From Chiloscyllium plagiosum (taxonomy: Eukaryota): DNA of 64,000 nt. Location of the stretch: positions 84,257,586 to 84,321,585 of the forward strand of contig NC_057718.1 in the NCBI RefSeq assembly GCF_004010195.1. Reading direction: 5' to 3'. A model generated the notes under the pieces. It was not told where the DNA came from. It ran no database searches and saw only the letters and a program-made list of their open reading frames with translations. This document shows, piece after piece, positions 11,161-11,691 of this stretch (its first letter is position 1; each line of letters begins with the position of its first letter). Both the position numbers and the translations under genes were made by a program.

Positions 11161-11691
11161 TCAAGATGTTTTGTAATTAGATGTTAGCCAGGTTAGCCCT
11201 TCATACAGTCCATCTCCAGTGGTTGCTGAGGAAGGCTGAACATACCAGTTACGATCTTGAATCCTATTCAGGCCCAGTTTCTCTTGGAGCTCAATGGGTT
11301 TCATGGCATTAGGCAGGTCTTGCTTGTTTGCAAAGATTAGAATAATAGCATTGCGCATTTCTCTGTCATTTATGATGCGATATAGCTCTTGTCTGGCTTC
11401 GTTAATGCGGTCTCTGTCAGCACAGTCCACCACAAAGATCAACCCCTGGGTACCTGTATAATAGTGCCTCCAAAGAGGTCTGATCTTATCCTGACCACCT
11501 ACATCCCAGACATTGAACCGAACATTTTTGTAAGTCACTGTCTCCACATTAAAGCCTACAGTTGGAGTTGTACTGACAGGCTGTCCCAGTTTGAGTTTGT
11601 ATAGCACCGTAGTCTTTCCAGCTGCATCCAGGCCCAGCATCAGAATTCGCATTTCTTTGTTTCCAAAAATCTTTGACAGGAATTTCCCCAT
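11161..11691 (-). CDS. ARF6: ADP-ribosylation factor 6-like small GTPase, 176 aa, intronless CDS
   Basis: [27 protein letters not shown]...[20 protein letters not shown]...NKQD...WLTSNYKTS*. Myristoylation Gly2 and the G1, G3 and G4 motifs are intact. ATG at 11691 has good context (aaaATGG). About 16 substitutions versus recalled human ARF6, so orthologue versus paralogue is unresolved. Confidence 0.93.

What the first reader, a model, noticed from the sequence alone, without database searches (positions are those of the whole stretch)
11161..11691. Divergent intact ARF6 next to SRSF7: probable whole-genome-duplication paralogue missing in mammals
Seen: a full ORF with about 16 substitutions and one extra residue versus recalled human ARF6, a protein normally near-invariant in vertebrates. 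Established: human ARF6 lies near SOS2, CDKL1, MAP4K5 and ATL1 (14q21-22), while SRSF7 lies near their paralogues SOS1, CDKL4, MAP4K3 and ATL2 (2p22), where I know of no ARF6 copy. Inference: this is the sister ohnologue of ARF6 retained in this lineage. The intronless CDS is normal for ARF6, and no poly(A) remnant follows the stop.
Basis: partly seen in the sequence, partly recalled or inferred. Interest (0 to 1): 0.7.

Follow-up and report, generated by a model that had tools for sequence, protein, structure and literature searches.

The report
Ancient second ARF6 gene in sharks
Sharks and chimaeras carry an intact, selectively conserved ARF6-type membrane-traffic GTPase gene beside SRSF7, likely a leftover of the early vertebrate genome doublings, and reptiles, frogs and bony fishes carry other extra ARF6 genes, so the single mammalian ARF6 likely survives from a larger ancestral set.

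Summary
Real and old. The ORF at 11161-11691 (-) encodes an intact 176-aa ARF6-class GTPase, differing from human ARF6 at 17 of 175 positions plus one extra residue. It lies head-to-head with SRSF7 across a CpG island. It forms a supported clade with Mustelus and Callorhinchus 'ARF6-like' proteins (95/92). In Callorhinchus the orthologue and SRSF7 have consecutive accessions and equal contig length, so the linkage likely predates the shark/chimaera split. Substitutions avoid invariant sites (1 of 17 versus 8 expected, P=2e-4). An intronless CDS is also seen in human, pufferfish and amphioxus. Whole-genome-duplication origin is the best reading (about 0.72) but is inferred: the SOS1/SOS2 paralogon is recalled, the protein tree cannot date the split, and expression is untested. 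No bony-vertebrate copy of this lineage was seen. Separate extra ARF6 lineages occur in squamates, turtles, Xenopus, teleosts and Chiloscyllium. Modest interest.

The parts
11161..11691 (-). ARF6-like coding sequence, single exon, 176 aa plus stop
11692..11826 (-). Candidate 5' UTR part of the coding exon, behind a possible splice acceptor (short pyrimidine stretch + CAG) at 11827; read by eye, below the script's own acceptor threshold, not verified by reads
   Evidence: sequence
18433..18600 (-). Candidate non-coding first exon of the ARF6-like gene (the only GT(A/G)AG donor-like site found on this strand in 18201-18800 follows base 18433); upper end is a guess
   Evidence: inference
18001..19500 (.). 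CpG island (CpG observed/expected 0.72-1.04), likely shared promoter region of SRSF7 and the ARF6-like gene
   Evidence: shared use is inferred
10815..10936 (-). Two candidate poly(A) signals ATTAAA (10931-10936, 10815-10820); an AATAAA lies at 9796-9801 beyond a repeat
   Evidence: unverified
18804..18831 (+). SRSF7 first coding exon
   Evidence: start matches Mobula SRSF7-like P0172; flank similar to Callorhinchus model P0404
31396..31576 (+). SRSF7 RRM exon
35700..35876 (+). SRSF7 zinc-knuckle exon
36797..46857 (+). SRSF7 RS-domain exons through the stop codon (exon ends approximate)

Best explanation
This is an intact, conserved ARF6 paralogue of cartilaginous fishes lying head-to-head with SRSF7, likely an ohnologue from the early vertebrate whole-genome duplications that mammals, and possibly all bony vertebrates, lost. 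Shown: open frame, all GTPase motifs, a clade with Mustelus and Callorhinchus proteins, and selection-like placement of substitutions. Inferred mechanism: it is predicted to work as ARF6 does, myristoylated on Gly2, cycling GDP/GTP at the plasma membrane and endosomes to drive recycling and actin remodelling. It is likely transcribed from the CpG island shared with SRSF7 through a non-coding first exon, so probably broadly expressed. The lineage-wide changes Ser38Pro (switch I), Lys58Arg (interswitch) and Cys155Ser (G5) would likely retune GDP release and GEF or effector preference rather than change its basic job; dosage sharing or sub-functionalisation is the likely reason for retention.
For: Clade of window + Mustelus XP_078086329 + Callorhinchus XP_007892562: 95/92 in a 28-row tree, 90/85 in a 16-row tree. 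Five shared changes (V29, P38, R58, Y104, S155); Y104 and S155 occur in only these 3 of 28 rows. Callorhinchus SRSF7 is XP_007892560/561 (EukProt P009649/650) and the ARF6-like is XP_007892562 (P009651); both map to a contig of 99,087,298 bases. Substitutions at invariant sites: 1 of 17 (8.0 expected, P=1.8e-4), Mustelus 0 of 16, Callorhinchus 5 of 28 (13.2 expected), using 111 of 119 reference ARF6 proteins. G2, G1, T44, G3, G4, F47/W62/Y77 and N48 unchanged; pI 9.4 against 9.0 for human. One-exon CDS in human, Takifugu and amphioxus Arf6 (PMC8358228 supplementary table 1). Other extra ARF6 lineages exist in jawed vertebrates, as WGD would predict. Roles of Ser38 and Lys58: PMC10547916 passages and PMC3207291 passages. 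Paralogon (ARF6-SOS2-CDKL1-MAP4K5-ATL1 versus SRSF7-SOS1-CDKL4-MAP4K3-ATL2): recalled, from no call.
Against: The protein tree has no resolved backbone (3 of 25 inner branches starred; bootstrap not fully settled). AU tests do not reject a shark-only duplication (p=0.19), grouping with the squamate/Xenopus copy (p=0.27) or grouping with human/chick (p=0.27). No SOS1, ATL2, GEMIN6 or GALM exon was found: 150 of 357 candidate segments, those outside the SRSF7 body, gave only retro-element hits and two weak sub-cutoff hits. So WGD synteny rests on one neighbour gene plus recall. A single-exon CDS facing a housekeeping promoter is also what a successful retrogene looks like. Adjacency in Callorhinchus is read from accession order, not DNA. 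P38 occurs in 10 of 111 and R58 in 15 of 111 other ARF6 proteins, so these may be tolerated variants with no functional shift. Expression and dN/dS were not measured.
Confidence: 0.72

Rival explanations
1. An old retroposed or transposed ARF6 copy that landed beside the SRSF7 promoter in the chondrichthyan stem, borrowed it as a bidirectional promoter and was kept by selection.
For: Single-exon CDS head-to-head with a housekeeping gene across one CpG island. Seen only in cartilaginous fishes. A shark-only clade is not rejected (p-AU 0.19). Human SRSF7 faces GEMIN6 instead (recalled), and no GEMIN6 exon was found here.
Against: A one-exon CDS is the state in human, pufferfish and amphioxus, so it carries no signal. 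No poly(A) run follows the stop, though age would erase one. Landing by chance in the block paralogous to the ARF6 locus is unlikely (inference resting on recalled human synteny).
Confidence: 0.16
2. It is the cartilaginous-fish orthologue of human ARF6, moved next to SRSF7 and evolving faster, with other copies covering the conserved role or absent.
For: I saw no human-like chondrichthyan ARF6: the UniRef entries for the human and chicken sequences are labelled Euteleostomi, and the other shark protein seen (Chiloscyllium P0125) has 8 differences. Grouping with human/chick is not rejected (p-AU 0.27).
Against: Only about 20 of 807 members of the main ARF6 cluster were listed, so absence means little. 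A second shark ARF6 type exists (P0125), and the window protein is not its recent copy (p-AU 1.3e-4).
Confidence: 0.1
3. A recent lineage-specific copy or young processed pseudogene.
For: No introns in the CDS; expression untested.
Against: Orthologues in Mustelus (160 of 175 identical) and Callorhinchus (148 of 175) are intact. The exact protein is on 5 NCBI contigs. Under neutral simulation 0.2-0.3 substitutions per site leave the frame open in 5% to 1.4% of 2000 runs, with 66% to 55% identity. Substitutions avoid invariant sites.
Confidence: 0.02

Closest known systems
ARF6 (class III ARF GTPase; human P62330 recalled; PDB 2a5d)
   Same: 158 of 175 residues identical; same short N-terminal helix, Gly2, P-loop, switch II, NKQD and hydrophobic triad; basic pI; single-exon CDS.
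   Different: 17 substitutions and one extra residue, three in switch I (S38P, T40S, I42T), one at a JIP4-specificity site (K58R), one in G5 (C155S); neighbour is SRSF7, not SOS2 (the human position is recalled).
NCBI 'ADP-ribosylation factor 6-like' of Mustelus asterias (XP_078086329.1) and Callorhinchus milii (XP_007892562.1)
   Same: Same 176-aa lineage with five shared changes; Callorhinchus copy appears to neighbour SRSF7.
   Different: Automatic annotations only; I found no paper treating them as a distinct lineage.
Zebrafish arf6a/arf6b (chromosomes 20 and 17, identical proteins; PMC4574480 passage)
   Same: A duplicated ARF6 in a fish.
   Different: Identical to each other and 99% identical to human per that paper (2 differences); usually read as a teleost-duplication pair (recalled). 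They lack the five diagnostic changes.
Squamate/turtle/Xenopus 'ARF6-like' (P0150, P0458, P0030) and Chiloscyllium/Takifugu type (P0125, TruArf6a)
   Same: Further divergent ARF6 genes in jawed vertebrates with no mammalian member seen.
   Different: Different diagnostic residues. In Phrynosoma and Lerista the ARF6-like and SRSF7 lie on contigs of different length, so it is another locus.
Ohnologues kept in sharks and lost in mammals (class; e.g. the nanos1A/1B case, PMC5932020, seen as search listing and abstract start only)
   Same: Same pattern of differential retention.
   Different: Here WGD origin is inferred, not proven by multi-gene synteny.

Membership tests
ARF family GTPase | Pfam Arf domain over the whole length | tested here: met
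   PF00025 255.7 bits, residues 3-172
ARF family GTPase | Gly2, G1 GLDAAGKT, switch I Thr, G3 DVGGQ, G4 NKQD intact (motif definitions recalled) | tested here: met
   All identical to human ARF6; G5 reads SAT instead of CAT
ARF6 (class III) | Closer to ARF6 than to ARF1-5, with the short N-terminus | tested here: met
   360 bits to ARF6, 272 to ARF1, 256 to ARF5, 249 to ARF4; aligns from residue 1 without gaps
ARF6 (class III) | ARF6-specific residues Gln37/Ser38 and Thr53, Lys58, Asn60, Thr79 (PMC10547916, PMC3207291 passages) | tested here: inconclusive
   4 of 6 kept; S38P and K58R changed, both seen in other natural ARF6 proteins (10 and 15 of 111)
ARF6 (class III) | Myristoylation, plasma-membrane/endosome location, activation by EFA6/cytohesin/BRAG GEFs | not testable with these tools
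   Needs cell or biochemical assays
Early-vertebrate WGD ohnologue | Duplication older than the holocephalan/elasmobranch split | tested here: met
   Clade with Callorhinchus orthologue; accession adjacency to SRSF7
Early-vertebrate WGD ohnologue | Duplication older than the cartilaginous/bony fish split in a gene tree | tested here: inconclusive
   Backbone unresolved; shark-only clade not rejected, p-AU 0.19
Early-vertebrate WGD ohnologue | Both copies lie in paralogous multi-gene blocks | not testable with these tools
   Only SRSF7 is in the window; no genome held; ohnologue-paper supplements gave no rows; human paralogon recalled
Retrogene / processed pseudogene | Loss of parental introns, poly(A) remnant, disabling mutations | tested here: not met
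   Parent CDS is one exon anyway; no A-run of 8 or more in 1,700 nt; frame intact in three lineages. This does not exclude an ancient functional retrogene.

The most novel reading that the evidence does not exclude
ARF6, usually described as single-copy and rarely duplicated, was kept as a full or nearly full set of two-round WGD copies in the jawed-vertebrate ancestor: the canonical gene, this SRSF7-linked shark gene, a SMOC-like-linked gene in squamates, turtles and frogs, and a Chiloscyllium/pufferfish gene. Each carries its own fixed changes at switch or G5 positions that tune nucleotide exchange, and mammals kept only one. These would be natural, selection-tested variants for dissecting ARF6 GEF and effector specificity.
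Probability: 0.35. Interest if true: 0.5.

Novelty: new member of a known kind. Interest (0 to 1): 0.3.

Why it matters
ARF6 is nearly invariant among canonical vertebrate copies (0-4 differences among 8 rows) and a family-wide survey says it duplicates only sporadically; no Callorhinchus entry was found in that survey's supplement (PMC8358228 section 10 and supplement). An old paralogue with fixed changes at Ser38, Lys58 and Cys155 corrects the vertebrate history of the family and warns against hidden paralogy: non-mammalian genes named 'ARF6' include different loci. It also offers natural variants at residues tied to GDP release and JIP4 binding. The class of event, an ohnologue kept in sharks and lost elsewhere, is common, so surprise is limited.

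Tried and rejected
Whole-genome search for a second ARF6: no genome held. Sequencing runs: no RNA holder listed on record; no reads were laid, so expression, UTR exons and the shared promoter are untested. Lineage-specific DNA pattern in metagenome contigs: 0 matches. Longer-protein search for informative gene fusions: no fusion of this lineage among the 120 listed of 280. 50%-representative search: no new member of this lineage among the 14 ARF hits I read of 150 listed. Other genes in the window: Pfam on 150 of 357 non-repeat segments of 48 aa or more found retro-element remnants and two weak sub-cutoff hits only; Rfam 0 hits; recalled GEMIN6/GALM motifs gave nothing credible. Supplements: PMC13450315 (1 file), PMC4504502 (1 file), PMC8302630 (file 4 of 5 not searched) and PMC8455134 (12 of 24 files not searched) had no ARF6 rows; the PMC11979771 supplement could not be read and, like the online ohnologue database of PMC13450315, may bear on both WGD origin and expression. 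A recalled review on Arf evolution is not held and could already mention these copies. Literature searches with no relevant paper. Earlier scan notes: nothing relevant. Rejected: recent copy or pseudogene; orthology with the squamate ARF6-like as the same locus (different contigs from SRSF7 in 2 of 2 species where both were listed), although the protein tree does not reject grouping them. No structure was predicted, since solved ARF6 structures are 90% identical.

Full report
Observation. Window 11161-11691 (minus strand) is one open frame of 176 codons. Its best solved relative is ARF6 (360 bits; ARF1 272) and Pfam Arf covers residues 3-172. Against the human-type sequence it has 17 substitutions in 175 positions and one extra residue: V4F I29V S38P T40S I42T K58R D97N H104Y D114N D128N H133I I135L T142N R145Q C155S S158T S175T. 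SRSF7 is on the plus strand from 18804 to 46857. The two genes point away from each other across a CpG island at 18001-19500. The rest of the window appears to be mostly retro-element debris; 150 of 357 candidate segments scanned with Pfam and an Rfam scan showed no other gene. That the window is from a shark is my inference from the closest proteins.

Age and orthology. Cluster look-ups returned two 176-aa proteins of the same type: Mustelus asterias XP_078086329.1 (160 of 175 identical) and Callorhinchus milii XP_007892562.1 (148 of 175). The three share V29, P38, R58, Y104 and S155; Y104 and S155 appear in no other of the 28 rows compared. They form a clade at 95/92 in a 28-row tree whose bootstrap had not fully settled, and at 90/85 in a tree of 16 of those rows (12 rows left out, five vertebrate and seven invertebrate or protist). 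In Callorhinchus, SRSF7 is XP_007892560/561 and the ARF6-like is XP_007892562, EukProt numbers run P009649-P009651, and both genes are on a contig of 99,087,298 bases. Consecutive numbering is indirect but strong evidence of adjacency. The linkage therefore likely predates the chimaera/shark split (roughly 400 million years, recalled).

Selection. Using 111 of 119 diverse ARF6 hits as reference, 82 of 175 sites are at least 97% invariant. Only 1 of the 17 substitutions hits such a site (8.0 expected, P=1.8e-4); Mustelus 0 of 16, Callorhinchus 5 of 28. Neutral simulation keeps the frame open in 5% of 2000 runs at 0.2 substitutions per site, with identity falling to 66%. All nucleotide-binding motifs, Gly2 and the F47/W62/Y77 triad are unchanged, and the protein is slightly more basic (pI 9.4 versus 9.0). 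dN/dS and expression were not measured.

Retrocopy question. No A-run follows the stop. Human, Takifugu and amphioxus Arf6 are each listed as one exon, while Ciona is included in the intron analysis (PMC8358228 supplementary table 1). So the missing introns say nothing. A possible acceptor at 11827 and donor after 18433 suggest a 5' UTR intron and a first exon in the CpG island (the acceptor was read by eye and missed the script's threshold). An old retrogene using the SRSF7 promoter would look the same, so that rival stays open.

WGD question. The argument is that human SRSF7 lies among SOS1, CDKL4, MAP4K3 and ATL2, paralogues of the neighbours of ARF6. This is recalled; no call confirmed it, and no genome was held. 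The protein tree cannot date the split: AU tests do not reject a shark-only clade (p=0.19), union with the squamate/Xenopus copy (0.27) or with human/chick (0.27), and reject only a recent pairing with the other Chiloscyllium ARF6 (1.3e-4). Circumstantial support comes from further lineages. One (M4, E160, M167; G99 in reptiles) is in squamates, turtles and Xenopus; one lizard model fuses it to a Kazal/thyroglobulin (SMOC-like) gene, and in Phrynosoma and Lerista it is on a different contig from SRSF7. Another (K113, E114, A127, F163) is shared by Chiloscyllium P0125 and Takifugu Arf6a (Takifugu compared by eye). A Danionella model fuses an ARF6 to FAU, and that exact protein occurs in other clupeocephalans. 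SMOC1 at 14q24, SMOC2 at 6q27 and FAU at 11q13 would fit the same paralogon (recalled). I also saw no human-like shark ARF6.

Likely function. By its motifs the protein is predicted to be a myristoylated GDP/GTP switch at the plasma membrane and endosomes, like ARF6 (PMC8358228 passage). A review places switch I at residues 32-48, says Ser38 shapes the nucleotide site and GDP release, and names Thr53, Lys58, Asn60 and Thr79 as JIP4 determinants (PMC10547916 passages). Q37E/S38I blocks actin remodelling without blocking traffic (PMC3207291 passages). The lineage has P38 and R58 fixed, and Mustelus also changes T53 and N60. A shift in exchange rate or effector choice is therefore plausible. P38 and R58 occur in 10 and 15 of 111 other ARF6 proteins, so they may be neutral; I42T is rare (1 of 111) but private to the window protein.

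Literature. The family survey says Arf6 duplicates only sporadically (PMC8358228 section 10 read in part) and has no Callorhinchus entry. Zebrafish arf6a/b are identical proteins on chromosomes 20 and 17 (PMC4574480 passages). For PMC13450315 I saw the abstract, outline and one supplement; for PMC8302630, PMC4504502 and PMC8455134 only supplement searches and listings; for PMC11979771 only the listing. Searches found no paper on a shark ARF6 paralogue. Subscription papers are mostly not held, and one recalled review could not be read.

Verdict. A real, old, conserved ARF6 paralogue of cartilaginous fishes, already auto-annotated as 'ARF6-like'. WGD ohnologue 0.72, ancient retro- or transposed copy 0.16, relocated true orthologue 0.10, recent copy 0.02. 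New member of a known kind; interest 0.3.

Noticed in passing
P0150, P0151, P0153, P0158, P0457, P0458, P0030: A second ARF6 gene in squamates, turtles and Xenopus (E160, M167), on contigs of about 27-31 Mb in four reptiles; one Phrynosoma model fuses it to a SMOC-like Kazal/thyroglobulin gene that may itself be a third SMOC (no paper holds 'smoc3' with smoc1/2).
   Followed up: partly
P0125 and Takifugu Arf6a: Another ARF6 lineage shared by bamboo sharks and pufferfish (K113, E114, A127, F163); locus unknown.
   Followed up: partly
P0030 (Xenopus) and P0125 (Chiloscyllium), residue 157: Natural T157N and T157V. T157A/T157N are recalled as engineered fast-cycling mutants of human ARF6 (not confirmed; one search found no mention).
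   Followed up: no
P0008: Danionella gene model fusing FAU (ubiquitin-like + RPS30) to an ARF6 with A154, suggesting a teleost arf6 next to fau, distinct from zebrafish arf6a/b.
   Followed up: partly
window 18770-18831 versus P0404: The SRSF7 5' UTR and first exon are conserved with Callorhinchus (19 of 26 residues in an off-frame translation); the Callorhinchus RefSeq model appears to read this exon in another frame.
   Followed up: partly
window 35877-36800: CpG-richer stretch in SRSF7 intron 3, where the conserved poison exon of SRSF7 is recalled to lie.
   Followed up: no
window 1-18800: No GEMIN6 exon faces SRSF7 here, unlike the recalled human arrangement.
   Followed up: partly
P0134, P0452-P0465: Many predicted ARF6 isoforms in different species diverge at residues 149-151, pointing to a cryptic splice donor at that place in the single coding exon.
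   Followed up: no
window 7460-7590, 8700-8930, 9640-9760 (+): Short exon-like stretches bounded by acceptor- or donor-like sites on the plus strand, downstream of the ARF6-like gene; no Pfam match.
   Followed up: no
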